Positions 26,218 through 41,880 of a stretch of 64,000 nt of DNA are shown one piece after another. The position numbers were made by a program, and so were the translations under genes. The stretch comes from Escherichia phage APECc02: sequence record NC_041869.1, one strand, 5' to 3'. A model generated the notes under the pieces. That model searched no databases, was not told the origin of the DNA, and saw only the letters and a list, made by a program, of their open reading frames with translations. Positions within the stretch are counted from its first letter, which is position 1. Each line of letters begins with the position of its first letter.

Positions 26218-26934
26218 ATGGCTACGCTTTATAGTGATATATTGATGGACCCACAGACAGGCGATTTGGCGATAGACAAAGGTCTTGAGTTGATAGATTC
26301 AAACCAGGTAAGTCTGCGCCAGCGCTTGTGGATGAGGTTTAATACGTGGAAGGGGAGCTGGTACTTTGACGAACTGTTTGGCTTCCCTTATATGGACTTT
26401 CTCAGTAAGAAGGTCATGAAGACTGTTCTTGATAACAAGATCATGGAAGTGGCAAGACAAGAGCCGGATGTGCTAAACATCATAAACTTCCAGTCTACCA
26501 TGGACCGAAGATCGAGAACATACCAAGCGTTCTTTGAGGTTGTTACCAAAGAGAACGAGATTGTAAGGCTGGCTTTCGTAGGTCTTGATCAGTTCACCTA
26601 CCCACAACCTGATTCTGGGACAACCTCTCTCTGTGATGATGAGGGTTGGATTAAGTGGGCTAATAAACTGTACTACCTGATCAACTTCAGATTACCTAGA
26701 ACCGGAGATGCCACATGGTGGAACCAGTATGCTGGTCCTGAGATGGAAAACCCGATCCCTGTAGGCTCTCTGTTGACTCAGGATAAAGATCTGCTGATGA
26801 CTGAGGCAGAACAAACCATTAACCGCAATACCTGGACGCTTGCTCCAGATGAGCGCGAATACTCTGGTGTTATTGCTACCTCCAATGATGAGGCTATTGC
26901 CAACCAGTCTGGTCGTGCTATTGATGTTAACTAA
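26218..26934 (+). CDS. baseplate wedge-like protein (gp25/W-like N-terminal domain, extended)
   Basis: N-terminal pattern GDLAIDKGLELIDSNQVSLRQRLWMRFNTWKGSWYFDELFG typical of small baseplate wedge proteins. Confidence 0.4.
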   Translation: MATLYSDILMDPQTGDLAIDKGLELIDSNQVSLRQRLWMRFNTWKGSWYFDELFGFPYMDFLSKKVMKTVLDNKIMEVARQEPDVLNIINFQSTMDRRSRTYQAFFEVVTKENEIVRLAFVGLDQFTYPQPDSGTTSLCDDEGWIKWANKLYYLINFRLPRTGDATWWNQYAGPEMENPIPVGSLLTQDKDLLMTEAEQTINRNTWTLAPDEREYSGVIATSNDEAIANQSGRAIDVN

Positions 26935-26943
26935 GGAGAAATC

Positions 26944-27612
26944 ATGGCTGTAGCTTATCCTACAATACCAATTCCAGATCTTGAAGATGCAGAAACAGTC
27001 CTGAGTGATGACTTCTTGGTTGTCAACCAGACTGATGGGACAAGAAAGGCTAAGATTGACGATGTTGTCAACGATCTTAGCATTACTAAGATAGTCTATT
27101 TCACAGAAGGTGGTTATCTTAAGAGCAAGAAGGACTTTGCTTATGACCCAGAGACTAAGCGCTACTACACGTGGAACGGGGATTATCCTAAAATAATCCT
27201 ACCAGACTCCACTGTAGAGGGTGCTGGGGGCGTGTCTGCAAATGCCTGGTCTGTTTTTGGTGAGCTTGCTGCAACTTCTTCTGGCAGAATAGTTGATTAC
27301 GGATCTATCGGTGGTCAGCTTGATATGGATCTTGAAGTTGCGGATACCTTTAAGGTTCGACTAACTTCAAATACTACAATCTCTTTTGAAAATCAAACAG
27401 AAGGTCTTGAAGGGGTGGCGAGAACTATAACCGTATGCATTACTCAGACCTCTGGCGGCAACAAAGTCTATTGGCCTGGTAATGTTAAATGGTCCTACGG
27501 AAGAGATCCTATCCTAACATTTACAGCTGGTGCAACAGATATTTTCAAGTTGGAAACCTACGACAACGGGTTAACTTGGTACGGGGCACTGATTATCGCA
27601 GGAGCTATCTAA
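26944..27612 (+). CDS. tail fibre-like protein sharing N-terminal anchor domain with 30247 gene
   Basis: N-terminal 100 aa alignable with N-terminus of the 1479-aa fibre. Confidence 0.45.
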   Translation: MAVAYPTIPIPDLEDAETVLSDDFLVVNQTDGTRKAKIDDVVNDLSITKIVYFTEGGYLKSKKDFAYDPETKRYYTWNGDYPKIILPDSTVEGAGGVSANAWSVFGELAATSSGRIVDYGSIGGQLDMDLEVADTFKVRLTSNTTISFENQTEGLEGVARTITVCITQTSGGNKVYWPGNVKWSYGRDPILTFTAGATDIFKLETYDNGLTWYGALIIAGAI

Positions 27613-27613
27613 G

Positions 27614-30211
27614 ATGCGTATTCAACATAACATTGATAACGTATTTCAGATGATTGAGGGGCACAGGAAGTGCCTCGATAACAACACAGGTATTACCAAC
27701 ACCCCTACACAAAATAAGCTAGTAAACCCTGATGGTCTTATAGCTGCAGGGTGGGCAGGTAATAAGATAAATAATGATTGGGCAATGCATGAGTCCCAAG
27801 CTGTGTTGATTCTGGGATACATTGAAGCATACAGGGCATCGAAAAGCGATTTCTATCTGGATAGGGCAAAAGATGCTTGGGAAGCTTACAATAGCCATCT
27901 TCTGGGTGCATATGCAGTAGAAAGTAAAATGCAAAGATTGTCCCACTACCCTCTATCCACAGATGGGGTTCCATCACATGGTGGGTTTAAAGATGTGGTG
28001 GTGTCTTTTACCAACGGTAGAGGAAAAATCCCAGCTGGATCTCCGACATGGGGGGAATACCTTGACAAGGCATTCCAAGCGTATAACGGTGTGTTAGGAA
28101 GAAACACTGTAGACTCTGATGTTTACGGTGGCACAGATGCTAACCCAGATTGGACAACATCCGGATTAAGTTGGTGGGTTGAGTGGTACATAGCATGGGA
28201 TGGTAACCGCTATTGGGCTAACGGTAGCATAGCCGACAGTGGTCATACGTCTGTAGAGTTCGGCACAATCCAATTACAAGATAAGGGTGTTACAGGAAGC
28301 CACAAGGTAACCTATTGTGTGAGATTACCTCAAGAGCAAGGTGGATCGGTGATACCTGCAGGATCCCCTGTAATTGTAAATCCCATAAACGTGGTTGCAG
28401 ATAATCAGGCCCCAGAGTTGGACGGGGAAGAAATGTGGTGTGACGCTTGTTATCAACTCTACACCTTGACAGGTGAGGAAAAGTATTACACCGCGTTTAA
28501 ACAGTCTTACAACAAATTGCTTAATTTCAGTGATATAAACGCCTACGACAAACTGTTTAGGAAGACCACGTTGATTAAGGCACCGTTTACAGATGGTACT
28601 TGTCTTGTTGCAGGAACAGTTCCTGTCATGAGCAGGGACAGTGACGGGTATATCAATTTTAGAATGAACGCACGCCAGCCTTGCGAAATAATTCAAAAAG
28701 GGACTACATACAAAATAGGCAGAGATGCTGAAATTGTTATGAATTTCGGAGGAGAAGGGGTTCTGTTCCAGCCACATTTCATCCTTAATGATGGCAACAA
28801 TAACAAAAAACAGTACAGGATAGGGGTTCCTTTTGGAGGGGCAGGGGTAACAGAAATAGTTGCCAAGGTTACTGATTTCGTAGAGGTAGTTGGTAAAGAC
28901 GGTAATCCGTATCTCTTACCTAAAGAGGAAAACATTGCCGTAAGCGGTGGTGCTGGTGTTAGTATGCAGTATGATACCGACATCTACAACCACTCTGACA
29001 ACTTCACCCGTTGTAATATAGCAAGAGGTAAAGTAACTTTCAATTTTGGAAGAGAGATTTCTTTAAACTCAGTAACTTATCGATCAGATGATGAGATGGT
29101 AAGGGTCAAATTTCTTGACAAAGATAGGTGGTTATGGTATGCTGATCTATATGCCACTAATGGACAATGGATAACAGAAACTCTTACTCTAGGAGACTTC
29201 AAACTAGATCCGACACAACCTCATCACACCGAAGAAGAGATTAAACCTTTCTTTGCTAATCCTAAGGGGCTCACCTCTGTAGATTTCAGCCTAAGCGACA
29301 GACAGATAGGTAATGGCTTGTTTGATCTATATTGCGTCAACACACTGCCGCAATTTTATATTGCAGATAGGGATGCTTATCTAATCTGGTTTAGCGTATG
29401 GATGGCAAGCAAGACAGAATCAACCGCTAAGGTTGGCGATTGCTATGTCAGAAACTACAAGCAAGGTGCATACAGGCACACACCAGGTGTGTTCCCTGCC
29501 GGAAAGGTGATAGATAAGGAAAACTATCTCTTAGAGGAAAAGCCAAATTGGCCCTACCCTGGCATGCAATACCCAGCAGTATACTGCATGGGTGCAGAAA
29601 ACATAGATCGCCATAGATTGTCAAATACAATAGGCTTTCTGTATGACGCTCAAGTCTGGTATAATAATACATTTAAGACAGAGGGTCCAGTTGCCTCGCG
29701 TTATGTATGGCAGAGAGGTAATGAAGGGCTGACTGGTTGGTGGGAGATGGTAGATAACTCTAAGCTCCAGTCAAGATCTTTTGTTGCTGCGTGCCGCACA
29801 ATCTATGAGCTCAAGAAACATAAAGAACCTGTTGATGAAAGATTATTCCTGTTCTGCCAGAAATGGGCATGGTTCCTCAACAGATTCCAGTCATCTCATT
29901 CAGGAAATCTACCTACAGACTTTAACACCTCTGGGGGATATTCTTATCAGGACAGAGGAGACAGGATGTGGGTGGTAGGTGAATGGCTTGCAGGTTGCTG
30001 CTGGCTAGGTCTGTGCGGGTATTCAGAGACAATACCTCAAATAGATATTGTTGTAGAGGCCTGTGTGAAGCTACTGCAAAAGCACCACTTCATTAATGGG
30101 GATAATGTTTTAAACGGCTGCTGGGCAGTTTCTGATCCGGTTGGCTATCACTCTGGCGAAATCCTTCGCGGTCTGGGCCTTTATGCTCAATACCGTGGAT
30201 TGTACCTTTAA
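27614..30211 (+). CDS. large tail-associated protein, possible glycan-degrading domain
   Basis: 865 aa; no confident motif. Confidence 0.4.
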   Translation: MRIQHNIDNVFQMIEGHRKCLDNNTGITNTPTQNKLVNPDGLIAAGWAGNKINNDWAMHESQAVLILGYIEAYRASKSDFYLDRAKDAWEAYNSHLLGAYAVESKMQRLSHYPLSTDGVPSHGGFKDVVVSFTNGRGKIPAGSPTWGEYLDKAFQAYNGVLGRNTVDSDVYGGTDANPDWTTSGLSWWVEWYIAWDGNRYWANGSIADSGHTSVEFGTIQLQDKGVTGSHKVTYCVRLPQEQGGSVIPAGSPVIVNPINVVADNQAPELDGEEMWCDACYQLYTLTGEEKYYTAFKQSYNKLLNFSDINAYDKLFRKTTLIKAPFTDGTCLVAGTVPVMSRDSDGYINFRMNARQPCEIIQKGTTYKIGRDAEIVMNFGGEGVLFQPHFILNDGNNNKKQYRIGVPFGGAGVTEIVAKVTDFVEVVGKDGNPYLLPKEENIAVSGGAGVSMQYDTDIYNHSDNFTRCNIARGKVTFNFGREISLNSVTYRSDDEMVRVKFLDKDRWLWYADLYATNGQWITETLTLGDFKLDPTQPHHTEEEIKPFFANPKGLTSVDFSLSDRQIGNGLFDLYCVNTLPQFYIADRDAYLIWFSVWMASKTESTAKVGDCYVRNYKQGAYRHTPGVFPAGKVIDKENYLLEEKPNWPYPGMQYPAVYCMGAENIDRHRLSNTIGFLYDAQVWYNNTFKTEGPVASRYVWQRGNEGLTGWWEMVDNSKLQSRSFVAACRTIYELKKHKEPVDERLFLFCQKWAWFLNRFQSSHSGNLPTDFNTSGGYSYQDRGDRMWVVGEWLAGCCWLGLCGYSETIPQIDIVVEACVKLLQKHHFINGDNVLNGCWAVSDPVGYHSGEILRGLGLYAQYRGLYL

Positions 30212-30215
30212 CATA

Positions 30216-30235
30216 GGGGGCTGTTTGCCCCCTTT
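30216..30235 (+). terminator. hairpin GGGGGC-TGTTT-GCCCCC with short T tract
   Basis: Weak T-run. Confidence 0.35.
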
Positions 30236-30246
30236 CAGGAGAAAGA

Positions 30247-33200
30247 ATGGCTGATATTAAAGTTGTCAGAATCGAATCTCTTCCTGCCACTACCGCAGTG
30301 ACAGAGGATGATTACCTGGTTGTTCAACAACCAGACCTGACCCGTCGTGTAAAAATTGGCGATGTTGTCCATGTGGATGGGACTGTTTCTCATGTAATCT
30401 CCTTTAAGGAAGGTGGTAAGTTAAACGGCCCAATGGATTTTGCCTACTTCGAAGAGGAAGACCTCTACCTGCGTTGGAAAGGCGAATTTCCACACACTGT
30501 TCCTGCACTATCTTCACCGTACTCCGATGGTGGGATTACTGACGCTGCATGGATGGTATATACAGATCCGTCCTTAAGGGAGGAGCTGGAATCTACCATT
30601 GGCGCATCTATGATCATGACAGCCGAAGGGCAGTCTGTCCAGGATGTAATGGATGTTACTGTTCAAACAGCTAACGATGCTAAAGCACTTGCACAGCGTG
30701 TGGATTTTGGTACAGTGCACACTGTAGGTGATGTTATTCACCTTGATAACTTTGTAGGTCCTGCAGTTATTGAAGAGGGAAGAACCACCAACTACCCTTC
30801 TGTAGCAGCTGGTGAAAAATTTCTGAACGGTGTGGTATCTCGTCGTGATACTACAACTGTTGATGGTATTTTCCGTGGCGCTACCTCCGGGGCCATGTAT
30901 ACCATTGCAGTAACCAATGGTGTAGCAACAACAAAAAGAATAGCACTTCGTGATGAATTTAAACGCCTGGAGGCAAACAGCCCAACAAGAACAGTTATCC
31001 GTGCTGGAGATGATTTAAACACGGCAGGGTACTTGCAGCTTGATGCAACAGGCCGCTGGGGTATGTGGAACCAACAAACAGCCTCGTGGCAACCTCTTGC
31101 TATAGAGCAAGGCGGTACAGGAGCCAGGGATGCCGCAGGTGCACGTATTAACTTAGGGGCTTTCTATAAGCAACGTGCAGCCCTTGAGCCAAATTTCAAT
31201 ATCAATAACTTGACTGGTAATCAGGATGGTGTATACTACCAGCCGATGACTGCTTATGCAACCGAGGCAAATGGTTACCCTGCAGGTTCTGGTGCTGGTC
31301 ACTTGATTGTTTGGCAGAACAATGCTAACGGCGGTACAGGTTGTCGTCAGGAATACTATCCATTCTCTAACGTAGATGTTTGGTATTTGAGAACCTATCA
31401 AGCCAACACAAACCAGTGGACTGCATGGCAGCCGATGGTCAGACCTCGTAACGATGATACCTTTAGATCGCACATCGGTCTCGGGTCTAGAAATTCCCCT
31501 ACCTTCGGGCACCTTTACCTGTCTCAAAGTTCTGCTGATGTTAAGTCAGCATCAGGTATTGTTAACGGGGACAAATACAGCGCTGACGGTGTCCTTGAGC
31601 ATGGTTATAGGATCTACTCTGAGGTAAGAAACGACAATAAGGCTTGGTTGACAATCCACCTGCACAAAGGTGCAAAAGGATCTGAAACCCATAGATATTT
31701 AGGTTTCCGCGAAGACGGTGTATTAGACTGCCCTAAATACATGCAGGTTGGGGATCTTACTGGTCAGCTGACAAACTGGGGACTTGGAGAGTGGATACGT
31801 AGTTCAGGAGCAGAAAGAGGCTTCTGGGGATCTAAGAAAGCCGCCAAGATGGTTATCTGGGATGGCGGGATGGACGAATCCGGTAACGGCACTCTGGAAT
31901 GGGGTGTTTATAACAACCGGAAGGCCAAGTGGGAACCTCTACCTCAAGCCGCAGGTGGCACCGGGGCTACAACTCTAGTAGATGCTCAGAATCTGTTCAA
32001 AGTTCCTATAGCAGCAGGTGTGAAAGACTTCTTAACACTGCCAAGAACCGCAGGGATGGAAGATGGGAAATACTACCCGATCATCGTTAGAACAGATCCG
32101 TACTATGCTCCAGCAACTGGTACTGATATTACCATAGTTACCAGATCGTCATCTGGAAATGACCCTATGAACTGTGCTACCTTACAGTGTCACTATAGAA
32201 CTGGTGGTTGGACAGACAGAGGAGACTCTTTCTACGGGGTAGTAAATTTCTACCAGAATGAAAAAGCAATTCTTGGGATGGTTGCTCCAACAAGGGGTAA
32301 ACAAGAATATGTTGCTTTCTATGCAGAGGCGCGTGCTTTCCCTGTCAGCATATACGCAAGTAGAAATGTTGTCGAGGTGTTTACCAGGGAGCAAGATTAC
32401 CAGGTTGGCTCTGTAACAGACAATCAGGACGGTGTTAAGTTCGTTGCACCTCTCCAGTCAGCAGATTTGAATCTTGCTGTTCTTGGAGATAATAATACCA
32501 ACACCAGACCTATTGTTGACTTCAAAGGGACTTCAGGGTTCTACACTGGTGGCGGCACACAGTGGCACTATATAGGCACTGCTGAACGCTATGCTGTGAT
32601 GAGCAAAATGAATATGCCAAAAGTCGAGCTATGGGCAGACGGTCTTGACTATTTGTGCTACGGCAGTCCTAGAAAGGCGTTATTCTCTAATGCAGGCTTC
32701 CAGTGTGCATCAGATGGGACAGAGGATCTGACTAACGGTACGTTTACCTCTAAATGCGGTAATGGTGCTGGTCTCAAAGGTCAGGCAGAGTTCAGATCTA
32801 CTCCAGAGGCTGGTCAAGTTATTGTTCGTGATGTTGTAGGTTCTGCTCACAGATTCTACAACTTCAACAAAGATGGCACTTTCTCAGCTCCTGGTGGTTT
32901 TGTATGCCACACAGGTGCAGACTGGAACAACCAGTTCGGGAATAACAACCCTTCTAAAATAATGGCTGGTAACGTCAACGGACCTGAAGGTTCCATGGTT
33001 GTAGCAGGGTTGTCGGTTGGTTTTTCTGGAAACTACGCTTTCCAGATGGCAGGTCGTTTAGACCAGCTGTATACTCGTTCCATAGAGCAGGGAAACCACA
33101 GAGCGTGGAACAAAGTTATTCAGCACCGTGGTCAAGGGTTGGGAACTAATGACCTTAACGACTACAAGGCAGATCGTGAAGGGATTTACCATCAAGAGGC

Positions 33201-34686
33201 AAATGCCAACGCCACAGCGGAAAGAAATTACCCACCAGGACAGCAGATGGCTGGTACGCTGATCGTTCTTAGAAACTCCGCTAACGAAGGAACAGGTTGT
33301 ATCCAGATATATAAAATGTATCTTGGTGGAACATGGGAAAGGTATTACAATAACCTTGGCAGCGGAATGGCTTGGAGTCCTTGGAAGAGAACAAGCTTCC
33401 CAGAAAACACAACTGCTCCAGTTATGCCTGACTTGTGGTTGCCTTTAACCTCTAACCTAAAACCTGCATTGGGTGAAGGTGAGATGGTCTTCTCCAGACC
33501 TTCCACAGCAACCTATTTCACTAAGCGGGGTGTTATGGCTGTTGCACAAGCAAACCAACCACGTTTTGAAAGAGATGGGTTGCTTATCGAGGGGCAAAGG
33601 ACAAACCTCATGCTCAACAGTGAGGACCCAAGCAAGTGGGGTGCACAGCAAGCGATTACTGTCGGTAGCACTGTAACAAATACTAACGGCACAAAAGGCG
33701 CAAGATTTACAGTAAACACCACATCCGGTGTAGAAACAACAGCGTTAAACCTTGCCACTGTTCCAGCCACTAGGGGTGCCGATGTGACAGGTGCTGAGAA
33801 ATTCTGTACTGGGTCTATTATTGCAAGGGGAGGTAAAGCGAACCAGAGATTACGTGTAAGATTCGACATGTATGACGGATCCACCACAGTATTCCAAGGT
33901 GACGCTTATGTTAACCTGTCAACACTTGAAGTTAAAACAACAGGGGATGCAGCTGGGAGAATTAAAGTAAAAGCTGAGAGATGGCAAACAGCCGGACCTG
34001 CTTGGGTAAGGATTGCCGCTACGTTTGAGGCAGCGGCCTCTGACAAGAATATCGGTTGCCAGTTCCAGATTGCCCCGCCGGAGAGTTCTCAACATGCCGT
34101 AGGGGATTGGGTTGACGTTGCAATACCTCAGTTTGAGTTGGGATCTTGTGAGTCCTCGTTTATCCCTACAGGGTCTTCACCTGTAACCAGGGCGGCAGAT
34201 CTTTGTAAATTTCCAATGACGGATAACCTAGCGCCCAGACCGTTCACTATCGCCGCTACGGTTGATGCCAACTGGAGAGGCTGGGGCAAAGCTCCTAACG
34301 CAGCTCCTAGGGTTATTGATACAGAAGGTCATCAATCCGGTGCTGCATTTATCATGGGGTTTGGCTCTGCAACAAATATTGCAGATGATGGTTATCCATA
34401 CTGCGATATTGGTGGGTCAACCAGACGTGTCTATGAGATGGCTAAAGCGCGTAAATTGAAGATTGGGTTCAGGATAAAAGGGGACGGTAAAACATGCTCT
34501 TTTGCTAATGGATTGGTAAGTACGGAAACACAGTCTTCTTGGGAGTTCCTGGCAGGAGGCGCTTTCCTCCGCATTGGTGGTAAAACGGCGACAGGTGAAA
34601 GACACCTATTTGGTCATATTAAGGACATAAGAGTTTGGAACTCTGCGTTGACAGATACTCAACTCATGATGGGGAGTGTTGAATAA
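30247..34686 (+). CDS. tail fibre/tailspike protein (1479 aa)
   Basis: Very long ORF, Gly/Thr/Asn-rich; N-terminal anchor domain shared with 26944 gene. Confidence 0.6.
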   Translation: MADIKVVRIESLPATTAVTEDDYLVVQQPDLTRRVKIGDVVHVDGTVSHVISFKEGGKLNGPMDFAYFEEEDLYLRWKGEFPHTVPALSSPYSDGGITDAAWMVYTDPSLREELESTIGASMIMTAEGQSVQDVMDVTVQTANDAKALAQRVDFGTVHTVGDVIHLDNFVGPAVIEEGRTTNYPSVAAGEKFLNGVVSRRDTTTVDGIFRGATSGAMYTIAVTNGVATTKRIALRDEFKRLEANSPTRTVIRAGDDLNTAGYLQLDATGRWGMWNQQTASWQPLAIEQGGTGARDAAGARINLGAFYKQRAALEPNFNINNLTGNQDGVYYQPMTAYATEANGYPAGSGAGHLIVWQNNANGGTGCRQEYYPFSNVDVWYLRTYQANTNQWTAWQPMVRPRNDDTFRSHIGLGSRNSPTFGHLYLSQSSADVKSASGIVNGDKYSADGVLEHGYRIYSEVRNDNKAWLTIHLHKGAKGSETHRYLGFREDGVLDCPKYMQVGDLTGQLTNWGLGEWIRSSGAERGFWGSKKAAKMVIWDGGMDESGNGTLEWGVYNNRKAKWEPLPQAAGGTGATTLVDAQNLFKVPIAAGVKDFLTLPRTAGMEDGKYYPIIVRTDPYYAPATGTDITIVTRSSSGNDPMNCATLQCHYRTGGWTDRGDSFYGVVNFYQNEKAILGMVAPTRGKQEYVAFYAEARAFPVSIYASRNVVEVFTREQDYQVGSVTDNQDGVKFVAPLQSADLNLAVLGDNNTNTRPIVDFKGTSGFYTGGGTQWHYIGTAERYAVMSKMNMPKVELWADGLDYLCYGSPRKALFSNAGFQCASDGTEDLTNGTFTSKCGNGAGLKGQAEFRSTPEAGQVIVRDVVGSAHRFYNFNKDGTFSAPGGFVCHTGADWNNQFGNNNPSKIMAGNVNGPEGSMVVAGLSVGFSGNYAFQMAGRLDQLYTRSIEQGNHRAWNKVIQHRGQGLGTNDLNDYKADREGIYHQEANANATAERNYPPGQQMAGTLIVLRNSANEGTGCIQIYKMYLGGTWERYYNNLGSGMAWSPWKRTSFPENTTAPVMPDLWLPLTSNLKPALGEGEMVFSRPSTATYFTKRGVMAVAQANQPRFERDGLLIEGQRTNLMLNSEDPSKWGAQQAITVGSTVTNTNGTKGARFTVNTTSGVETTALNLATVPATRGADVTGAEKFCTGSIIARGGKANQRLRVRFDMYDGSTTVFQGDAYVNLSTLEVKTTGDAAGRIKVKAERWQTAGPAWVRIAATFEAAASDKNIGCQFQIAPPESSQHAVGDWVDVAIPQFELGSCESSFIPTGSSPVTRAADLCKFPMTDNLAPRPFTIAATVDANWRGWGKAPNAAPRVIDTEGHQSGAAFIMGFGSATNIADDGYPYCDIGGSTRRVYEMAKARKLKIGFRIKGDGKTCSFANGLVSTETQSSWEFLAGGAFLRIGGKTATGERHLFGHIKDIRVWNSALTDTQLMMGSVE

Positions 34687-35018
34687 TGAATATTTTTACC
34701 CTTGGATTCACTGACAGGGAGGACTTTAACGGTTTCATGGATGAAATCGGCTTTTATGAGAATGAGGTGTTGCAAAACACCCTTCTTGTAGAGGTTGTCG
34801 GGTTCATTTACACAGAGACTGGAGACACTTATGAGGCCGAAGATGAATTTGGCAACATGGTTGTCTACCCGGTTTGCGAGAAAAGTGAATTGTTTTATGT
34901 TAACGTTCTGGCTCTGGACGAGGATGCAGAAAACATCGTCTCTAAAAGCGGAAAAGTTGTAGATCCGATAAGGTTGAACATGTTCGACCCATCAGTATCC
35001 ACCTTGGAAGCACTTTAA
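34686..35018 (+). CDS. hypothetical protein (possible fibre chaperone)
   Basis: 110 aa, overlapping start with fibre stop. Confidence 0.35.
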   Translation: MNIFTLGFTDREDFNGFMDEIGFYENEVLQNTLLVEVVGFIYTETGDTYEAEDEFGNMVVYPVCEKSELFYVNVLALDEDAENIVSKSGKVVDPIRLNMFDPSVSTLEAL

Positions 35019-35025
35019 AGTATTG

Positions 35026-35050
35026 CCCTCGCTTCGGCGGGGGTTTTTTG
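35026..35050 (+). terminator. rho-independent terminator
   Basis: CCCTCGC-TTCG-GCGGGGG then TTTTTTG. Confidence 0.7.
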
Positions 35051-35116: not shown

Positions 35117-35707
35117 ATGTTTTTATGGGAAAGGCCTAGATACCTTCCAGATATTAGATTAGAGTTGCTGGCAGATATTGTCACGTTTAAAAGTCCGTTT
35201 ACAGGTAAAACGCAAAAAGTAACCTATGCCACGCCTAACTGGAAAGGCACTTTGACGGTCTCCAATATCAGCGAGTCACAGTTACTAGAGCTTAAGAGCT
35301 TTGTTGATCAGGTGTATAAAGATGGGAACATCTTTCTTATTAAAACTTACGGTCACTCGGTAACAGCTAACGAGCCAATCGCCCTTGGGCCTACTGGTAA
35401 CGACGATTTTTTGAAGACTGTTGGGTGGGAGCCAAACAGAGACATAGCCAGAGCCGGGGATAAAATATCTGTCAATGATGAATTGAAAGTGGTAACAGCT
35501 CCAGTGCGTAGCGATGGTGTTGGGTCTGCTGTTATAGGCATATCTCCAAGACTTAGAAAACCTATTGCCGCAGGGGACACCATGAAGATAATAACTCAAT
35601 CTCCGAAGGGTAGGTTTCATATCAGAGATATTTATAAAATTAAGCAAAAAGTCGATGCTATGCAAAAAGGTGATAATATAGTTATCAACTTCTTTGAGGA
35701 TTTCTAA
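35117..35707 (+). CDS. tail tip protein (lambda M-like position)
   Basis: 196 aa; first gene of L/K/J-like block. Confidence 0.35.
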   Translation: MFLWERPRYLPDIRLELLADIVTFKSPFTGKTQKVTYATPNWKGTLTVSNISESQLLELKSFVDQVYKDGNIFLIKTYGHSVTANEPIALGPTGNDDFLKTVGWEPNRDIARAGDKISVNDELKVVTAPVRSDGVGSAVIGISPRLRKPIAAGDTMKIITQSPKGRFHIRDIYKIKQKVDAMQKGDNIVINFFEDF

Positions 35708-36260
35708 GATGATCAGAGCGCCATTAGATAATTTATTTCTTGAAAAGCTGGAGCTTGATGGTGTTGAGATCTTAATTGCTGCAAAGCTGGAGCTACCGAC
35801 AGGAACTGTCAGGGTGTGCTCAGGCACTGGTGTTGTAGTAATTGAGGGGCAACATTTTATAGGGATAGGTGGATCAGCAACATTAACCGCTGTGTCTGAG
35901 AAAGATGCCACCAACTTCGGATCTGTGGTAGCGACATTGAACGGGTTTGATCCTAAGTATGTGGGTGATCTGCTAAAGACTGAGTATTCTGGTTGTCGTG
36001 CCACGTTGTACATTACCGCTATGGAGAATGGTCTGCCTGTTACAACTAATGGCTTGTTTGACGGCCTTATAACAGATATGGCTATTCAGACAGGTGAGAA
36101 TAGCGCTTTGTCCATATCCATCTCTTCCATCTTTAACAGTTGGTTAAGAGGTTTTCCTTATCGGTACACGGAGGAAAGCCACAGCTCAAGAAACGATAAT
36201 GACAGATTTTTTAAATATGTGGATCAGGTGGCGAGCCGCCCGATCATTTGGGAGGTTTAA
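35694..36260 (+). CDS. minor tail protein L-like
   Basis: 188 aa; N-terminal pattern LFLEKLELDG...VRVCSGTGVVVIEGQHFIGIG resembles lambda gpL family. Confidence 0.45.
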   Translation: MRISKMIRAPLDNLFLEKLELDGVEILIAAKLELPTGTVRVCSGTGVVVIEGQHFIGIGGSATLTAVSEKDATNFGSVVATLNGFDPKYVGDLLKTEYSGCRATLYITAMENGLPVTTNGLFDGLITDMAIQTGENSALSISISSIFNSWLRGFPYRYTEESHSSRNDNDRFFKYVDQVASRPIIWEV

Positions 36261-36685
36261 TGAGCACACACCCTCGTTTAGTGGATTGGCAAGAAAGATT
36301 GTGGAAAGTGTTTGACGAAGAGGCCACCATACCTTTTGAATGGGGATTCCACGATTGTTGCACCTTTGCAGCTAAGTGTGTTGATGCCCAATACGGAACA
36401 GATTTTCTTTCTAACTTCGAAGGAACGTATAAAACAGAGTTGGAAAGCAAAAGATGGTGCATGCTTCGTTTCAAAACTACACACCTGCCTACTATTTTTG
36501 ATCTCTTTATGACTCGACTGGATACTCCTAAACAGGTTCAGCGTGGCGATATTGTTATTTTCGAAGGTCTGAACGGGCTCACCGCTGGTGTGTTCTGGAA
36601 CAACCAGATTTGGGCGAAAGGTGATAAAGGGGTCTTTATGTTCGACATGAAAGATTCTATCGTTGTTGATGTCTGGAGGTATTAA
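36260..36685 (+). CDS. tail assembly protein K-like (NlpC/P60-like Cys motif)
   Basis: ATG 36260 with GGGAGG RBS; HDCCTF and GDIVIFEG motifs. Confidence 0.45.
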   Translation: MSTHPRLVDWQERLWKVFDEEATIPFEWGFHDCCTFAAKCVDAQYGTDFLSNFEGTYKTELESKRWCMLRFKTTHLPTIFDLFMTRLDTPKQVQRGDIVIFEGLNGLTAGVFWNNQIWAKGDKGVFMFDMKDSIVVDVWRY

Positions 36686-39600
36686 TGCCAATTGCAATGA
36701 TTGATAACATCGTTGCTTCTGCAAGATCTTCAAGTTATGACTGGAACGCATCCAAGGCAGCTCTGGCTGACAGCCTGAACACTGTGACCACCAGAACTTT
36801 GGATAAGATTTTTGAGGGCAACAAATCTTACAGAAGTCAGCAAGATAGACAAAAGCTTCTCAGATCTTCTGCTGCACCTTGCTCTGTAGTGTATGGAAAG
36901 ACACGCACATCTGGATTGCTTGCGTTTTTGGAGCAGGATAGCGACAGAACCCTCCATTGTGCTATTGTTCTTGCCAATCACCCTCTGGAAGGTATAGAAG
37001 ATATACTTATCGACGGTAATCCTATTTCCTCGTATGGAGATCTGGTATCGTGGGAGCTACATAACGACAGAAAAACATCTGATCCTTTCATGGGTACACA
37101 CTGCCCATCATGGTCACCTGACATGATAGGTAGAGGGATCAGTTGGCTACGTGCCAGCTTCAGGTTTGACCCTAACAAGTTTCCTTTTGGGTTGCCAAAC
37201 GTTACACTCGTTAAGGTTGGTAAAAAATGCTATGATCCTCGCATCAGTAAAGAGGTGTATACCAATAACGCGGCCTTGGTGATTCTAGACTATTTAAGAA
37301 CGTACCTTAAATGTCCTGACGAAACCATCAACTGGGAGTCCTTCAAGGAGGCTGCTAACATATGCGACGAGGCGGTAAAAAACGCAGACGGAACCAGTGA
37401 GCGCCGATACACCATTAATGGCGAGTTTGACATGGACGAGGCTCCGGCAAGCATTATGGCAGAAATGCTGAAAGCTTGTGGCGCAGATCTCAGCTATGTA
37501 GCTGGTAAGTATGGTTTGCTGGTTGGTGCATACTATGGCCCGGCAACAATGACGCTGAGTGAGGATTGTGTCTGTGGTGAGGTCAAGATCTATCCGGAAG
37601 CCTCATTTGACAAAAGATCCAACACAATAACTGGCAGATTCACTAGTCCGACCAAAGGGTATTCTGAAACAGATTTTCCATCAGTGTTTGTCCCAGAGTG
37701 GATAGAGAAGGATGGAGAAAGAAAGATAATCGATATAGACTATCGCTTTGTTACCAGTCCTTATCAAGCTCAGCGTGTTTCTGCAATCTTCCTAAGACGT
37801 GCCAGAGCTGGCAGGATTATTGAAGTCACCTGCAATATGCGAGGTTTCAAATTTAAACCTGGTCGTTACGTTACAATGGACCTCCCAAGTATTGGTATAG
37901 TGGGCCAAGAAATGAGAGTTCTTGAATGGGAGTTTACCAAAAAGGGTGGTGTCAAGGTAAAACTTCGTCAAGATGCTAAAGAGTGGAATGATGCCACAGG
38001 ACAACTTCCGGATTCTGGCGATGTAGATATTCCAATATCTCCATCTGGTGTAGCTCAACCGCAAAACTTCAGATATTCCGTTCTCCAAGCTGGAGAAGTA
38101 ACTCACGGTGTTTTGGCTTGGGACAACGTTGGGACCTACGCTCAAAATATTGTGCAGGTAAGAAAGAACGGAGAGATTGTTTGGACAGCACAAACAGTTG
38201 AGCAGTTTGTCCGAGTAGAAGGCTTGACCAAAGGGTCATACACAGCAACCGTGGTTGCAACATCTTATAAAGGTGGCGTATCTCCGGAAGCATATTGTGA
38301 GTTCAACATTCAGGCACCTGAAGCTCCTGTTTCTGTGGAGGTTAAACAGGGATACTTTGCTATTACCCTGATCCCGCACAGCAGAGACTTGGCTAGTGTA
38401 AGCACCCAGTACGACTTTTGGACATCTGGGATGACAAGATTGCCAGATACCAGTGATGCAACCGTTACTTCAAAAGCCACTCGTATGGGTGTTGGTTCAA
38501 CTTGGACATCTGAAGGTCTGCAGAACGATAAGATTTATTACTGGTATATCAGGACAACAAATGCTTTTGGTTCATCTGCTTTTGTGGAGTGTGCAGCCCA
38601 CTGTTACACATCCATAGAAGATCTTATGCCACAGATTGATGCTGAGTTCAAAAAGACAGAGACTTATAAAGAGCTTACCGCCAATCTTGATAATGCAGTC
38701 AAGGAAATGGATAAAAATGTTGGTGCAGTCAATGACCGTGTTACTAGCATTTTTGAAGAGCTTGGGGATACAATAGAGGGTGTTGTCAGAGAGACGACAG
38801 AAAAATTTACAGGGGTTAATGGAGAAATTTCTGCCCTTAACAGTAAGCTGGTAGCAGCTCAGCAATCCTTTGACGATAAACTTGCAGCAGAGTCTGGTAG
38901 GCTTGGGTCACTAATCGAGACAACAAATAGATCAACCGTTGATCTTGTTAATCGTAAAACTCAAGCATTGAGTGAGCAAATAACTGCAACGCAAGGTACT
39001 CTGCGGGAAGAGTTGAAGAACACTGAGAGCAAACTTAACTCCTCTATTCAAGAAACCAACAAGGCAACAACCGATCTGCTAAATAAGACAACGGAAGCTA
39101 TTAAGCAGGATCTGGTGGCAGCTACAGGGAAGATCACCAAGCTGGAAGATGATGTGCAGAAAGAGGTTGCCAATCTGCAAGCATCTATTCAAGAAACTAA
39201 TAGTACAACAGTTGATCTTGTTAATAATACAGCCACAGCGATCCGTCAAGAACTTACCTCTGCAAAACAAGAAATTGTTGACGAAATGGGTAATATTGAT
39301 GAGCTCAGGGCTACAGTATCTAATACCTCTAAAGCTGTAACAACACTTGAGGGTAAAATAGATGCTCAGTGGGGAGCTAAGATTCAGGTAGACTCCGCAG
39401 GGAATAAATATGTTGCAGGTATCCAGCTGGGGATGGAAGGATCTGGGGGCCAAGTTCAATCCTACTTCATGGTTAGTGCAAACAATTTTGCGGTATACAA
39501 CCCCGGAAATGGAACAGCAACCCTTGCTTTCGCAATCAAGAACAACCAAGCGTTCTTGAAAGACGCTTTTATAGAGAATGGCACGATCTCCTCTGCCAAG

Positions 39601-40284
39601 ATCGCACAAGAAATTTCGTCAAACAACTACGACGGCAACGGGTACCATAAATACGGTTGGTATATTAACAAGAACGGGCACGCCCAATTCATGGATGTGT
39701 GGGTGAAAGGCAACATCAACGCCAGTTCTGGTAACTTCACAGGGGCAGTTAACGCCACTAGTGGTACCTTCCGTGGGGATGTTTATGCCAATAATGGTAG
39801 CTTTAGAGGCACCATAGATGCAACCGGAGGTACCTTCCGTGGTCGTGTAGAGGCTTCTGTTATCCGCGCTAACCAGTTCGAAGGTGCAATTGTTGCACAC
39901 AGGACTTACGGGGATTGTGCCCCAGTATATAACTCCCAGCAAAGGGTTTGCCGTTGGAGGTGGAGATACGTAGATAACGTTTCAGGTCAGGGTAAGAACG
40001 TAACATTCTTCTTTAAACTGAATGGTACTCTTGCCAGCTCCCAACTGAATGCATGGATAGCTGGTCATCAGATCCTTGCTGGCAAGAAGTATTTTAACGA
40101 CAACAACGGCATGTGTGCGGTAGGGATAACAGGTCTGGGTGAACAAACTATAGACATTGTTATCGAGATTTACACACCGTGGTCAACGTCGAGCGTGACA
40201 GGTGTCACAATCTCCTGTCCTACTGTGATAGTAAGTCGTTCAAACTCTAGCTTCCAGGGACCTTGGAACGAGTCTCACGACTAA
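36685..40284 (+). CDS. host specificity protein J-like central tail fibre
   Basis: 1199 aa; segments QGYFAITLIPH, IYYWYIRTTNAFGSSAFVE, KYVAGIQLGMEG align with lambda gpJ (recalled from memory, not searched); C-terminal G(S/T)FRG repeats. Confidence 0.65.
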   Translation: MPIAMIDNIVASARSSSYDWNASKAALADSLNTVTTRTLDKIFEGNKSYRSQQDRQKLLRSSAAPCSVVYGKTRTSGLLAFLEQDSDRTLHCAIVLANHPLEGIEDILIDGNPISSYGDLVSWELHNDRKTSDPFMGTHCPSWSPDMIGRGISWLRASFRFDPNKFPFGLPNVTLVKVGKKCYDPRISKEVYTNNAALVILDYLRTYLKCPDETINWESFKEAANICDEAVKNADGTSERRYTINGEFDMDEAPASIMAEMLKACGADLSYVAGKYGLLVGAYYGPATMTLSEDCVCGEVKIYPEASFDKRSNTITGRFTSPTKGYSETDFPSVFVPEWIEKDGERKIIDIDYRFVTSPYQAQRVSAIFLRRARAGRIIEVTCNMRGFKFKPGRYVTMDLPSIGIVGQEMRVLEWEFTKKGGVKVKLRQDAKEWNDATGQLPDSGDVDIPISPSGVAQPQNFRYSVLQAGEVTHGVLAWDNVGTYAQNIVQVRKNGEIVWTAQTVEQFVRVEGLTKGSYTATVVATSYKGGVSPEAYCEFNIQAPEAPVSVEVKQGYFAITLIPHSRDLASVSTQYDFWTSGMTRLPDTSDATVTSKATRMGVGSTWTSEGLQNDKIYYWYIRTTNAFGSSAFVECAAHCYTSIEDLMPQIDAEFKKTETYKELTANLDNAVKEMDKNVGAVNDRVTSIFEELGDTIEGVVRETTEKFTGVNGEISALNSKLVAAQQSFDDKLAAESGRLGSLIETTNRSTVDLVNRKTQALSEQITATQGTLREELKNTESKLNSSIQETNKATTDLLNKTTEAIKQDLVAATGKITKLEDDVQKEVANLQASIQETNSTTVDLVNNTATAIRQELTSAKQEIVDEMGNIDELRATVSNTSKAVTTLEGKIDAQWGAKIQVDSAGNKYVAGIQLGMEGSGGQVQSYFMVSANNFAVYNPGNGTATLAFAIKNNQAFLKDAFIENGTISSAKIAQEISSNNYDGNGYHKYGWYINKNGHAQFMDVWVKGNINASSGNFTGAVNATSGTFRGDVYANNGSFRGTIDATGGTFRGRVEASVIRANQFEGAIVAHRTYGDCAPVYNSQQRVCRWRWRYVDNVSGQGKNVTFFFKLNGTLASSQLNAWIAGHQILAGKKYFNDNNGMCAVGITGLGEQTIDIVIEIYTPWSTSSVTGVTISCPTVIVSRSNSSFQGPWNESHD

Positions 40285-40389: not shown

Positions 40390-41880
40390 GTGGCTAAGTA
40401 TGGATTGACAGAGGCTGGTTTCGTTATACCAACCCTAAATGACCTAATCGTTGAAACTAAGCAAAGCCTGATCCGTGCTTTTGGCGAAAACTTCAACGTA
40501 CAGAGTAACTCCGTTGCAGATAAGCTGACCACTATCTTCAACGAGCGAGAGTATCAACTTATTCTTATGGCAGCATCTGTATACGCATCACAGACGCTGT
40601 ATGGGGCAGAAGGTATTTATCTGGATGAGCTTCTTGGAAGACAGGGTATTTACCGAAGAGGCCGTTCTAAATCATCAGGTACCTGCCAGTTGACGATCAA
40701 CACAACTGTGCCGTACAATATGATTTATGATTCCAAAACTTATACGCTGGATAGTGGCAACTTTGTTCTTAGCAATGATGTGCAAGTGGCAGGGAATCTT
40801 ATTGCTCACAGAATAAATGCTCCAGACCTGAGGATTGGTAAATACAACTTTCAAATTACCAACCAGACAGATGGAAGTATCAAAACAAAAAGTTTGGTTT
40901 TAACAGATAAGGCTCTGGACTCTTCTGATCTGCCAAGCTTTTACGGAGAGATTAAGCAATTCATTGTCGATAATACAACCCTGTTGAACGACGATTTGAT
41001 TCAGATCGATATGTTGACAGGAACGTTGTGGATAGGGTACAATTCGAATCTTGATCAAGTTGGACTTAATAGTAGGGTAGATTTCAGAGTATCCCCGATT
41101 GTAGGGGAAAGAACTATCACCCTGGATGTTATCGCTAACGAGGCTGGTGAGCTGTCAAGAGAGGCAGAAACCGTGACAACAATGTCACCTACTCCCAGTG
41201 GATTTATCAAGCTTACCAACAGAGAAAGATTCAATGAGGGCAGGGATGTTGAGAAAGACTCAGAGTATCGCTTAAGAGCTTCCAGCACAAAACAGTTAAC
41301 ATCTAAGGCTACCCGTCCTGCAATCCTTAGCGCTGTAAGCGAGGTGAAAGGTGTTGAGAAAGTGAGAGTGTTCTCTAACAATACCGATAAAACTGATGCT
41401 AAAGGTATACCTCCTTACAAGTTCCAAGTGGTTGTGTTTGGTGGTGCAACGGAGGACATTTGCCAAGCACTTTACCAAACTATAGCCTGTACGAACAGGA
41501 CTTATGGTAATATTTTCTACGATGTCACTACATCTGACGGTCAAACTGAAAGAATTTATTACTCCAAGGCAAATACCTACCGCTTGGATGTAAGAATTAC
41601 CTACTCCGGTGCTGCGCTTTCCACAACCGAAAAAGATGCCATTGTAGAGGCTCTTTTGCAGGTTGTTAACGGACTGGATGTTGCAGATACGTTATACAAT
41701 ATCCAATTGGTCGGTGCTGCATCCGCTGCTGTGTCAATAGGCAGATTTAATAGACTGGTAATTCAAGTTAAATCCGTAGGAGCTTCTGATGAAGCTTACA
41801 CTACAAACGATATTGTTGCGAACATGACCGAGGTGTTTGACCTCGACGAAAGTAATATAACTTTCCAACAAACTATTTAA
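40390..41880 (+). CDS. baseplate J-like/tail protein (putative)
   Basis: GTG start; segment GIYLDELLGRQGIYRRGRSKSSGTCQLT resembles baseplate J family signature. Confidence 0.4.
   Translation: MAKYGLTEAGFVIPTLNDLIVETKQSLIRAFGENFNVQSNSVADKLTTIFNEREYQLILMAASVYASQTLYGAEGIYLDELLGRQGIYRRGRSKSSGTCQLTINTTVPYNMIYDSKTYTLDSGNFVLSNDVQVAGNLIAHRINAPDLRIGKYNFQITNQTDGSIKTKSLVLTDKALDSSDLPSFYGEIKQFIVDNTTLLNDDLIQIDMLTGTLWIGYNSNLDQVGLNSRVDFRVSPIVGERTITLDVIANEAGELSREAETVTTMSPTPSGFIKLTNRERFNEGRDVEKDSEYRLRASSTKQLTSKATRPAILSAVSEVKGVEKVRVFSNNTDKTDAKGIPPYKFQVVVFGGATEDICQALYQTIACTNRTYGNIFYDVTTSDGQTERIYYSKANTYRLDVRITYSGAALSTTEKDAIVEALLQVVNGLDVADTLYNIQLVGAASAAVSIGRFNRLVIQVKSVGASDEAYTTNDIVANMTEVFDLDESNITFQQTI

What the first reader, a model, noticed from the sequence alone, without database searches (positions are those of the whole stretch)
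26944..34686. Shared N-terminal anchor domain on a short and a giant fibre protein
Seen in sequence: the 222-aa and 1479-aa proteins begin with alignable sequences (M..Y/V...P.L......V..DD(F/Y)LVV.Q.D.TR..KI.DVV). Inference: both dock on the same virion site, so the particle may display alternative or stacked fibres; the 865-aa gene between them may carry a glycan-degrading domain.
Basis: inference. Interest (0 to 1): 0.4.

Follow-up and report, generated by a model that had tools for sequence, protein, structure and literature searches.

The report
Shared anchor on two phage fibres
In this rV5-like E. coli phage, a short tail protein and a giant tail fibre begin with the same ~105-residue plug-in module that most likely fastens both to the baseplate; that design is well known, and the short protein looks like the holder for the neighbouring sugar-cutting-type enzyme rather than a fibre of its own.

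Summary
The 222-aa and 1479-aa proteins share residues ~1-105 (38% identity, E=3e-18, z≈30 against shuffles), and no other ORF in the window carries this module. The window is a Vequintavirus, 96-97% identical to published rV5-like phages; the three genes are rV5 gp43/gp42/gp41, all detected in rV5 virions.

The module has two separable parts. Residues 1-47 are an "N-peptide" that always sits at the extreme N-terminus. It is found on 1-3 fibre genes in the slot between the sheath-initiator and wedge genes in rV5-, PVP-SE1-, phi92/phAPEC8- and Mydo-like phages. Residues ~48-105 are a Pfam PF18668 tailspike head domain, which elsewhere follows many different anchors.

New here:
- The short protein's C-terminal domain is followed immediately by a homologue of the 865-aa protein in 68 of 80 independent viral contigs, across at least 11 carrier architectures.

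So the 222-aa protein is probably a stalk or adaptor that carries the 865-aa enzyme. The giant fibre uses the same anchor with a swappable distal receptor-binding module.

"Same docking site" cannot be decided from sequence. This is an ordinary, largely known design; the PVP-SE1 annotation already notes the N-terminal similarity.

The parts
26944..27612 (+). 222-aa protein (rV5 gp43 orthologue): N-peptide, PF18668 domain and C-terminal partner domain; proposed stalk/adaptor for the 865-aa protein
   Evidence: ORF. phrog_7760 'tail fiber protein', E=8e-120. 98-100% identical in more than 100 rV5-like phages. rV5 gp43 (222 aa) detected in virions.
26944..27084 (+). N-peptide (aa 1-47) of the 222-aa protein; putative baseplate plug
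   Evidence: 47% identical to aa 1-46 of the 1479-aa protein, E=8e-9. Profile A3 hits it at aa 1-48, E=6e-24. AF2 pLDDT below 50, so the structure is unresolved.
27094..27258 (+). PF18668 Tail_spike_N domain (aa 51-105) of the 222-aa protein
   Evidence: Pfam E=2.1e-10, 41 bits against a cut-off of 25. PDB sequence hits 9occ_G, 8x8m, 5w6f, 4qnl.
27277..27606 (+). C-terminal domain (aa 112-221) of the 222-aa protein; travels with the gp42-like gene
   Evidence: Conserved at the extreme C-terminus of carriers of 157-563 aa that lie immediately upstream of a gp42-like ORF in 68 of 80 IMG/VR loci, and in SB2, 7-11, K493, PVP-SE1, phAPEC8 and JohannJBalmer. No solved relative by sequence.
27614..30211 (+). 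865-aa protein (rV5 gp42 orthologue): (α/α)6-barrel glycosidase/epimerase-like fold with β-rich insertions; has no N-terminal anchor of its own
30216..30232 (+). GC-rich hairpin (GGGGGC-TGTTT-GCCCCC, then TTT) between the 865-aa and 1479-aa genes
   Evidence: Read from the sequence. Not called by the terminator scan because the T-run is short. Function unknown.
30247..34686 (+). 1479-aa lateral tail fibre (allele at the rV5 gp41 position)
   Evidence: ORF. phrog_6578 'tail fiber protein'. Annotated as a lateral tail fiber in BASEL phages. rV5 gp41 detected in virions.
30247..30387 (+). N-peptide (aa 1-47) of the giant fibre
   Evidence: Profile A3 E=5e-23 at aa 1-47. In the exhaustive search, all 21 hits that start at query residue 8 or earlier start at target residue 12 or earlier.
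30382..30555 (+). PF18668 Tail_spike_N domain (aa 46-103) of the giant fibre, followed by a neck segment
   Evidence: Pfam E=3.1e-10, 40.5 bits against a cut-off of 25. PDB hits 9occ_G E=1e-10, 9d84, 9lna, 4qnl, 4oj5. Matches CBA120 TSP4 internally at aa 438-497.
33484..34683 (+). Exchangeable distal module (aa 1080-1479) of the giant fibre
   Evidence: At more than 90% identity in only ~34 rV5-like records, against 116 records for the N-terminal 118 aa. 28-49% identical to lateral/side tail fibres of T5-like, T1-like and lambdoid phages. PDB 6tb9 RcGTA head spike fibre E=4e-7.
34686..35018 (+). 110-aa ORF overlapping the fibre's stop codon (TAATG); last gene before a terminator-like site at 35025-35044
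   Evidence: phrog_1361, unknown function.
26218..26934 (+). gp25-like sheath initiator; upstream boundary of the N-peptide fibre slot (context)
   Evidence: phrog_120 'baseplate wedge subunit'. 69-71% identical in PVP-SE1 and Mydo-like loci.
40390..41880 (+). Baseplate_J wedge protein; downstream boundary of the slot in relatives and candidate socket (inference)
   Evidence: PF04865 E=4e-9. ~60% identical in PVP-SE1 and Mydo-like phages. In phi92, fibres I and III attach to the C-terminal domain of the wedge protein (PMC13450770).

Best explanation
The three genes encode two appendages of an rV5/phi92-type contractile-tail baseplate that use one plug-in N-terminal anchor.

The anchor has two parts. 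The first is a lineage-specific N-peptide (aa 1-47). The second is a PF18668 tailspike 'head' domain (aa ~48-105).

- Appendage 1: the 222-aa protein is a short (presumably trimeric) stalk. Its C-terminal domain (aa 112-221) recruits the co-translated 865-aa protein, an (α/α)6-barrel glycosidase-like enzyme with no anchor of its own.
- Appendage 2: the 1479-aa fibre has the same anchor, then a long shaft, then a horizontally exchangeable distal receptor-binding module.

The anchors most likely dock on a conserved peripheral baseplate component. The Baseplate_J wedge protein is the leading candidate.

What is shown: the homology, its modularity, its N-terminal position, its phyletic restriction, the gene coupling, the fold of the 865-aa protein, and virion association of the rV5 orthologues.

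What is inferred: the physical contacts (anchor to baseplate; C-domain to 865-aa protein), the trimeric state, the enzymatic activity, and whether the two anchors use the same or neighbouring sockets.
For: 1. Homology statistics. Both proteins exceed the PF18668 gathering score.
2. The module is separable. phAPEC8 gp168 and JohannJBalmer gp24 (157 aa) are N-peptide plus C-domain without PF18668. The phAPEC8 endosialidase fibre starts with the N-peptide and has no BLASTP match to the PF18668 segment. An 82-aa remnant of the ESCO9 EndoN gene also carries the N-peptide.
3. The N-peptide is always at residues 1-48 and sits on carriers of very different length and body. PF18668-only relatives carry the domain at internal positions 7-516, behind other N-termini, for example CBA120 TSP4 aa 438-497.
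4. The N-peptide genes (1-3 per genome) occupy the slot between the gp25-like sheath initiator and the Baseplate_J wedge gene in rV5-, PVP-SE1-, phAPEC8/phi92- and Mydo-like phages. The peptide is absent from other lineages that carry the C-domain/gp42 pair.
5. The C-domain/gp42-like cassette: 68 of 80 IMG/VR loci are adjacent, nearly all with a gap of -55 to +5 nt, across 11 carrier/partner size classes. It is also present in a Rosemountvirus, the podovirus 7-11, a Vibrio phage and jumbo phages whose short proteins have unrelated N-termini. The genus distributions of hits are nearly identical.
6. The 222/865 genes are coupled (TAAGATG).
7. The 865-aa fold.
8. The distal 400 aa of the giant fibre are allelic and shared with siphovirus lateral fibres, while the N-module is conserved on alleles of 617-1599 aa.
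9. rV5 gp41, gp42 and gp43 were detected by virion mass spectrometry.
10. In phi92, fibre I attaches to the wedge C-terminal domain and fibre II branches from the base of fibre I.
Against: - No structural or biochemical data exist for any of the proposed contacts.
- The AF2 model of the 222-aa protein is poor (mean pLDDT 57; N-peptide below 50), and no solved structure contains the N-peptide or the C-domain by sequence.
- No fused C-domain/gp42 protein was found in a small sample.
- 12 of 80 C-domain loci lack a gp42-like neighbour.
- The IMG/VR set is redundant; about 45 loci belong to one family.
- Adjacency could instead reflect a fibre-tip/assembly-factor relationship.
- The phi92 authors report that predicted gp140 alone does not fit the fibre II density.
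- No catalytic residues or Pfam glycosidase family could be assigned to the 865-aa protein.
Confidence: 0.6

Rival explanations
1. The 222-aa protein is a self-contained short fibre or spike. It and the giant fibre compete for, or stack on, one and the same baseplate socket, giving alternative or mosaic decoration. The 865-aa protein is a separate enzyme.
For: The N-modules are homologous. The N-peptides show no clear split into short-type and RBP-type across genera, as expected for a shared socket. The number of N-peptide genes varies from 1 to 3 between related phages with ~60% identical wedge proteins. The C-domain also ends some very long fibre-like proteins that have no gp42 neighbour. 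The phi92 gp140 model resembles the Pa223 capsid spike.
Against: The tight, widespread coupling of the C-domain to a gp42-like gene is unexplained by this model. The 865-aa protein has no recognisable anchor, yet its orthologue is virion-associated. Precedents (Bas63, CBA120) show that homologous N-domains can use different sites. The identity matrix rests on only 47 residues and is inconclusive.
Confidence: 0.2
2. The 865-aa protein is the hub or adaptor (like gp37 of K1E/K1-5/SP6). It sits on the baseplate and offers sockets to the N-modules of both flanking proteins.
For: The gene lies between the two N-module genes and is conserved in rV5-, PVP-SE1- and phi92/phAPEC8-like phages. The L-shaped fibre I of phi92 has been likened to the K1E/K1-5 adaptor-plus-spike arrangement.
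Against: Mydo-like Vequintavirinae have 2-3 N-peptide fibres but no gp42-like gene in the locus. The gp42-like family occurs with the C-domain in many phages that lack the N-peptide altogether, so its conserved partner is the C-domain, not the N-module. Only the 16.5-kb fibre locus and the first 50 kb of the Mydo genome were inspected.
Confidence: 0.1
3. The shared N-terminus is only a trimerisation or folding nucleus, or an evolutionary relic of a gene fusion or duplication. Attachment is mediated by other regions.
For: The PVP-SE1 annotation calls its RBP a 'fusion protein' with a gp43-like N-terminus. The PF18668 domain is a generic head/neck element that follows many different anchors.
Against: A ~47-aa peptide is conserved strictly at the extreme N-terminus of otherwise unrelated fibres, only within one baseplate lineage, including a minimal 157-aa protein. 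This is the signature of an attachment element. In CBA120, the homologous heads are the experimentally shown binding elements.
Confidence: 0.1

Closest known systems
rV5 gp43/gp42/gp41, PVP-SE1 gp51/gp50/gp49 and phi92 gp140/gp141/gp143 (Vequintavirinae and Stephanstirmvirinae tail-fibre locus)
   Same: Direct orthologues: 95-97% nucleotide identity to rV5-like phages. Same synteny in all three groups: sheath initiator, short protein, ~900-aa protein, variable RBP. The PVP-SE1 record already notes that gp49 resembles rV5 gp43 at its N-terminus.
   Different: The giant fibre here is a 1479-aa allele, whereas rV5 gp41 is 1272 aa with an endosialidase-chaperone-like C-terminus. In phi92/phAPEC8-like phages the short protein lacks the PF18668 segment. 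No published assignment of these proteins to fibre densities was found; the 2026 phi92 paper does not mention gp141.
CBA120 (Ackermannviridae) branched tailspike complex and G7C gp63.1/gp66
   Same: Several receptor-binding proteins are attached through homologous N-terminal 'head' domains. The PF18668 domain is shared. TSP heads are the experimentally demonstrated binding elements.
   Different: No gp10-like XD docking domains were detected here. The N-peptide replaces the D1 domain. The bodies here are a fibre and an (α/α)6 protein, not β-helix tailspikes.
K1E/K1-5/SP6 adaptor (gp37) with two interchangeable tailspikes
   Same: The concept of a short conserved N-terminal element that lets different receptor-binding proteins plug into the same tail (own knowledge). 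Fibre I of phi92 has been compared with this arrangement.
   Different: Those are podoviruses with a dedicated adaptor protein. No homologue was tested or seen here, and the 865-aa protein does not behave as that adaptor.
Bas63 (Felixounavirus) long and short tail fibres
   Same: [quoted passage not shown]
   Different: In Bas63 the similarity is only structural and the two fibres dock at different sites (LTF-platform trimer versus wedge-2A D2). Here the similarity is clear at sequence level and the sites are unknown.
Six-hairpin (α/α)6 glycoside hydrolases and epimerases (GH48, GH8, GH105, GH88, GH76, cellobiose 2-epimerase)
   Different: 8-13% identity and no Pfam family. The barrel is interrupted by two large β-rich insertions (aa ~100-260 and ~329-613). 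Catalytic residues and substrate are unknown.

Membership tests
Pfam PF18668 Tail_spike_N (TSP1/gp66 N-terminal domain) | Profile score above the curated gathering threshold (25 bits) | tested here: met
   222-aa protein: 41.0 bits at aa 51-105. 1479-aa protein: 40.5 bits at aa 46-103.
rV5 gp43/gp42/gp41 orthologous group (Vequintavirus) | Near-identity and synteny with the rV5-like tail-fibre locus | tested here: met
   7.7 kb at 95-97% identity with 100% coverage in many Vequintavirus records. Same gene order as JeffSchatz bas55_0024-0026.
rV5 gp43/gp42/gp41 orthologous group (Vequintavirus) | Virion association of all three proteins | not testable with these tools
   Taken from the literature only: rV5 gp41, gp42 and gp43 detected by total-phage proteomics (PMC3606486).
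CBA120-type branched tailspike complex | D1-D2 head on the attached tailspikes | tested here: inconclusive
CBA120-type branched tailspike complex | Hub protein with T4 gp10-like XD2/XD3 docking domains | tested here: not met
   No gp9/gp10-type Pfam domain in 17 tail/baseplate ORFs of the window. hhalign of the C-domain profile against TSP4-N335 gives probability 0.2%.
K1E/K1-5/SP6 adaptor-plus-two-tailspikes system | Dedicated adaptor protein (gp37 homologue) carrying two sockets | not tested
   No gp37 sequence was compared. The phyletic pattern argues against the 865-aa protein playing this role.
Six-hairpin (α/α)6 glycosidase superfamily (865-aa protein) | (α/α)6 barrel fold | tested here: met
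Six-hairpin (α/α)6 glycosidase superfamily (865-aa protein) | Catalytic acid/base residues and demonstrable glycan cleavage | not testable with these tools
   No Pfam family. Only a helical-hairpin motif aligns to cellobiose 2-epimerase, E=0.002. An enzyme assay is needed.
Conserved-anchor / exchangeable-RBP tail fibres (general design) | N-terminus conserved across alleles while distal parts vary and are shared with unrelated phages | tested here: met
   The N-terminal 118 aa are at least 95% identical in 116 records. The distal 400 aa exceed 90% identity in ~34 records and are otherwise found in T5-, T1- and lambda-like lateral fibres. The N-module sits on alleles of 617-1599 aa.

The most novel reading that the evidence does not exclude
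The short-stalk protein (C-terminal docking domain) plus the ~900-aa (α/α)6-barrel protein is a widespread, so far undescribed two-piece tail appendage cassette. It moves between myo-, podo- and jumbo-phages by swapping only the stalk's N-terminal anchor. In rV5/phi92-type phages this pair is the still-unassigned fibre density (fibre II, or the arm of fibre I). It shares with the variable receptor-binding fibre a universal N-peptide plug that lets 1-3 different appendages branch from one wedge position.
Probability: 0.3. Interest if true: 0.55.

Novelty: new member of a known kind. Interest (0 to 1): 0.33.

Why it matters
Vequintavirinae and phi92-like phages are broad-host-range therapy candidates with several coexpressed sets of tail fibres. 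It is still unclear which genes build which fibre (PMC8594841; PMC13450770).

A defined ~47-105-aa anchor gives a rational boundary for swapping receptor-binding modules in these phages.

The proposed stalk-plus-enzyme pairing gives structural biologists a concrete candidate complex (gp43:gp42, or gp140:gp141 in phi92) to fit into the unassigned density.

It also flags a large family of virion-borne (α/α)6 proteins whose substrate is unknown.

Tried and rejected
- A profile of the N-peptide against PDB found nothing credible. A profile of the C-domain against PDB found nothing.
- The hypothesis that the C-domain is a gp10-like XD docking domain was rejected by hhalign (probability 0.2%).
- A Rosetta-stone search for C-domain/gp42 fusions (Goslar gp092, P0008-P0010) was negative.
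- The test for type-specific clustering of N-peptides (one socket or two) was inconclusive on 47 residues.
A narrower alignment returned only 5 loci.
- The search for homologous proteins with the 13-sequence N-peptide profile returned almost only 40-82-aa fragments.
- Homologue searches for the 222-aa and 865-aa proteins returned only 4 and 6 clusters, so the alignments were shallow.
- Schwarzer et al. 2012 (the phi92 genomic and structural paper) is not held.
- The whole-genome check of Mydo for a gp42-like gene was abandoned after the first 50 kb. The claim is limited to the syntenic 16.5-kb locus.
- The literature search for six-hairpin phage tail proteins was unspecific.
Full report
**1. 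What the window is**

The 7.7-kb region matches more than 100 published phages at 90-97% nucleotide identity. Full-length hits include Escherichia phages nomine, JeffSchatz (Bas55), FFH2 and rV5 derivatives. The window is therefore a Vequintavirus (rV5-like myovirus).

In JeffSchatz the three genes are annotated 'sialidase domain protein', 'lateral tail fiber protein with glycosidase domains' and 'lateral tail fiber protein'. They lie directly after the tape measure, hub, spike and a gp25-like baseplate protein. In rV5 numbering they are gp43 (222 aa), gp42 and gp41. All three were detected in rV5 virions by mass spectrometry (PMC3606486).

**2.

- The ORFs are exactly as described.
- BLASTP aligns aa 8-105 of the short protein with aa 7-105 of the giant one: 38% identity, E=3e-18.
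- The local score is 175 against 27.7±4.9 for 2000 shuffles.
- No other ORF of the 64-kb window carries the module.
- At DNA level the two copies are no longer alignable, so this is an old paralogy.

**3. Anatomy of the shared module**

It has two parts.

*PF18668 domain.* Residues ~48-105 are a Pfam PF18668 Tail_spike_N domain in both proteins, ~41 bits against a cut-off of 25. The closest solved relatives are heads of tailspikes and fibres: 9occ gp13, 9d84, 9lna, G7C gp63.1 (4qnl), and CBA120 TSP1/TSP3. In CBA120 TSP4 this domain lies internally at aa 438-497, behind the anchor and XD domains.

An exhaustive HMMER search of 1.84 billion representatives found 66 hits. The 45 PF18668-only matches begin at target positions 7 to 516. 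So this domain is a generic head/neck element that follows many different N-termini.

*N-peptide.* Residues 1-47 (consensus MADxxPTVKISDLPxATxVxxxDYLVVDQxDxTRK) are independently significant (47% identity, E=8e-9) and behave differently. In all 21 hits that include this segment, it sits at the very N-terminus of the target, on proteins of 49-1599 aa.

The two parts are separable:
- In phAPEC8 and the phi92-like JohannJBalmer, the short protein is only 157 aa: N-peptide fused directly to the C-terminal domain, with no PF18668.
- The phAPEC8 endosialidase fibre also begins with the N-peptide.
- The 82-aa remnant of the ESCO9 endosialidase gene retains it too.

**4. Where N-peptide genes occur**

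In rV5-like, PVP-SE1-like, phAPEC8/phi92-like and Mydo-like phages, the slot between the gp25-like sheath initiator and the Baseplate_J wedge gene contains one to three genes that start with the N-peptide:

| Lineage | Lengths of N-peptide genes in the slot (aa) |
|---|---|
| rV5-like (this window) | 222, 1479 |
| PVP-SE1 | 224, 712 |
| phAPEC8 | 157, 921 |
| JohannJBalmer | 157 |
| Mydo-like | three genes in three loci (606-707, 1122-1321, 275-294); two in a fourth (1009, 1125) |

The flanking baseplate proteins are 60-70% identical between rV5-, PVP-SE1- and Mydo-like phages. The peptide was not found in any other lineage examined.

This combination is the classical signature of a virion-attachment element: strict N-terminal position, fusion to unrelated bodies, and restriction to one baseplate type.

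The similarity is not new. The 2010 PVP-SE1 GenBank record already calls gp49 a 'fusion protein similar to rV5 gp043 at N-terminus'. Kropinski et al. noted that the gp43 N-terminus resembles the P22 tailspike N-terminus by HHpred.

**5. The short protein is probably an adaptor, not a fibre**

tblastn of the 222-aa and 865-aa proteins against 50,697 phage records gives almost the same genus distribution: 534 versus 523 records, with matching counts for Escherichia, Salmonella, Vibrio, Erwinia and Cronobacter.

Outside the Vequintavirinae, only the C-terminal domain (aa ~110-222) of the short protein is conserved. It always sits at the extreme C-terminus of a protein encoded immediately upstream of a homologue of the 865-aa protein. 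Examples:

| Phage | Carrier / partner (aa) |
|---|---|
| Rosemountvirus SB2 | 207 / 985 |
| Podovirus 7-11 | 258 / 976 |
| Vibrio phage K493 | 175 / 916 |

The N-termini of these carriers are unrelated to each other and to the N-peptide.

In an independent sample of 80 IMG/VR loci encoding the C-domain, 68 have a gp42-like ORF directly downstream on the same strand. The gap is -55 to +5 nt in all but two. These cover 11 carrier/partner size classes. The sample is redundant, and 12 loci with the most divergent C-domains lack the partner.

In the window the two genes are coupled (TAAGATG), whereas a GC-rich hairpin and a separate ribosome-binding site precede the giant fibre gene. The 865-aa protein has no N-peptide, no PF18668 and no other recognisable anchor, yet its orthologue is in the virion.

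The simplest reading is this. The lineage-specific N-terminus of the short protein fixes it to the tail, and its conserved C-domain holds the 865-aa protein. This contact is inferred, not shown. No fusion protein was found in a small sample.

**6. The 865-aa protein**

With seven homologues, AF2 gives a model of mean pLDDT 70. Helical hairpins (aa 59-95, 269-306, 654-860) are interrupted by two β-rich regions. Foldseek on the whole chain was uninformative.

Activity, substrate and catalytic residues remain unknown.

**7. The giant fibre**

Behind the anchor come a neck, a long shaft with two copies of an ~80-aa domain (aa 318-399 and 969-1048; 37% identity, E=1e-11), and a distal 400-aa module.

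The N-terminal 118 aa are at least 95% identical in 116 records. The distal module exceeds 90% identity in only about 34. Otherwise it is 28-49% identical to lateral or side tail fibres of T5-like phages (including IrisVonRoten), T1-like phages and lambdoid phages. The same N-module occurs on alleles of 617, 827, 988, 1481 and 1599 aa. This is ordinary receptor-binding-module exchange behind a fixed anchor.

**8. Same socket or not?**

This cannot be decided here.

- Pairwise identities of the N-peptides do not separate a short-protein type from an RBP type across genera, but 47 residues give little power.
- The number of N-peptide genes varies from 1 to 3.
- Precedents point both ways. In CBA120, homologous heads bind different XD platforms. 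In Bas63, two fibres with a structurally conserved baseplate-binding domain dock at different wedge sites.
- In phi92, fibre I attaches to the wedge protein's C-terminal domain and fibre II branches from the base of fibre I. Fibre II is unassigned, and the 2026 study does not consider gp141.
- A hub role for the 865-aa protein is unlikely. Mydo-like phages have N-peptide fibres without it in the locus, and its conserved partner elsewhere is the C-domain.

**9. Verdict**

The finding is a correct observation of a known design principle in a well-sequenced phage group, and it has already been flagged in a database annotation.

The interpretation needs two amendments. 'Same site' is unproven. The 'short fibre' is more likely the stalk that carries the 865-aa (α/α)6 protein.

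The conserved stalk/enzyme cassette and the delimitation of a 47-residue plug are modest new points. They make the open fibre-assignment problem of phi92/rV5 phages more testable.

Noticed in passing
window 35117-40284 (+): A siphovirus-style tail-tip cassette sits inside the myovirus baseplate locus. It comprises a 196-aa 'distal tail protein' (phrog_1302), a 188-aa ORF, a 145-aa DUF6950 protein (PF22262), and a 1199-aa lambda gpJ-like protein (PF09327 E=3e-38, PF24489 E=3e-30). It is absent from the syntenic slot in PVP-SE1, phAPEC8, JohannJBalmer and Mydo, so it appears to be a Vequintavirus-specific insertion between the N-peptide fibres and the wedge gene.
   Followed up: partly
window 31198-31443 and 33151-33390 (+): The giant fibre contains two copies of an ~80-aa domain (aa 318-399 and 969-1048; 37% identity, E=1e-11). 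Each matches different tail-fibre PHROGs.
   Followed up: partly
window 30216-30232 (+): A perfect 6-bp GC hairpin (GGGGGC/GCCCCC) followed by TTT lies in the 35-nt gap between the 865-aa and 1479-aa genes. It was not called by the terminator scan. A much stronger terminator-like site lies at 35025-35044, after the 110-aa ORF.
   Followed up: partly
window 42578-44650 (+): The 690-aa fibre protein is an N4 gp65-type 'non-contractile tail sheath' protein: TIM barrel PF23845 (E=1e-79), NCTSP_N and Calx-beta. In phi92/phAPEC8-like phages its homologue sits directly after the gp42-like gene instead of after the wedge genes.
   Followed up: partly
phage records MG0656xx (e.g. H11, H13-H15, H17-H18): About 20 GenBank records named 'Campylobacter phage' with host Campylobacter jejuni are 95-100% identical to rV5-like coliphages across this locus. 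The host labels look doubtful.
   Followed up: no
L010 (Vibrio phage K493) 1-6014: In this Vibrio phage the short-protein/gp42-like pair directly follows genes annotated like the CBA120 baseplate genes ('gp6 baseplate wedge subunit', 'head closure Hc2'). That is the position where CBA120 carries its tailspike cluster.
   Followed up: no
L006 (Erwinia phage phiEt88) 6258-8878: A 47-kb temperate-type myovirus has a 214-aa 'tail fiber protein' with a weak N-peptide-like start (MADIKLKYLTDL..., E=0.003). It is followed by a 658-aa protein that aligns with aa 8-114 of the 222-aa protein (the PF18668 region) at its residues ~40-150. The anchor motif may therefore extend beyond the Vequintavirinae.
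   Followed up: partly
window 34686-35018 (+): A 110-aa ORF overlaps the giant fibre's stop codon (TAATG). It belongs to phrog_1361 (unknown function). Small ORFs annotated as similar to PVP-SE1 and rV5 proteins sit just upstream of the wedge gene in phAPEC8 and JohannJBalmer; their homology to this ORF was not tested. Role unknown.
   Followed up: no
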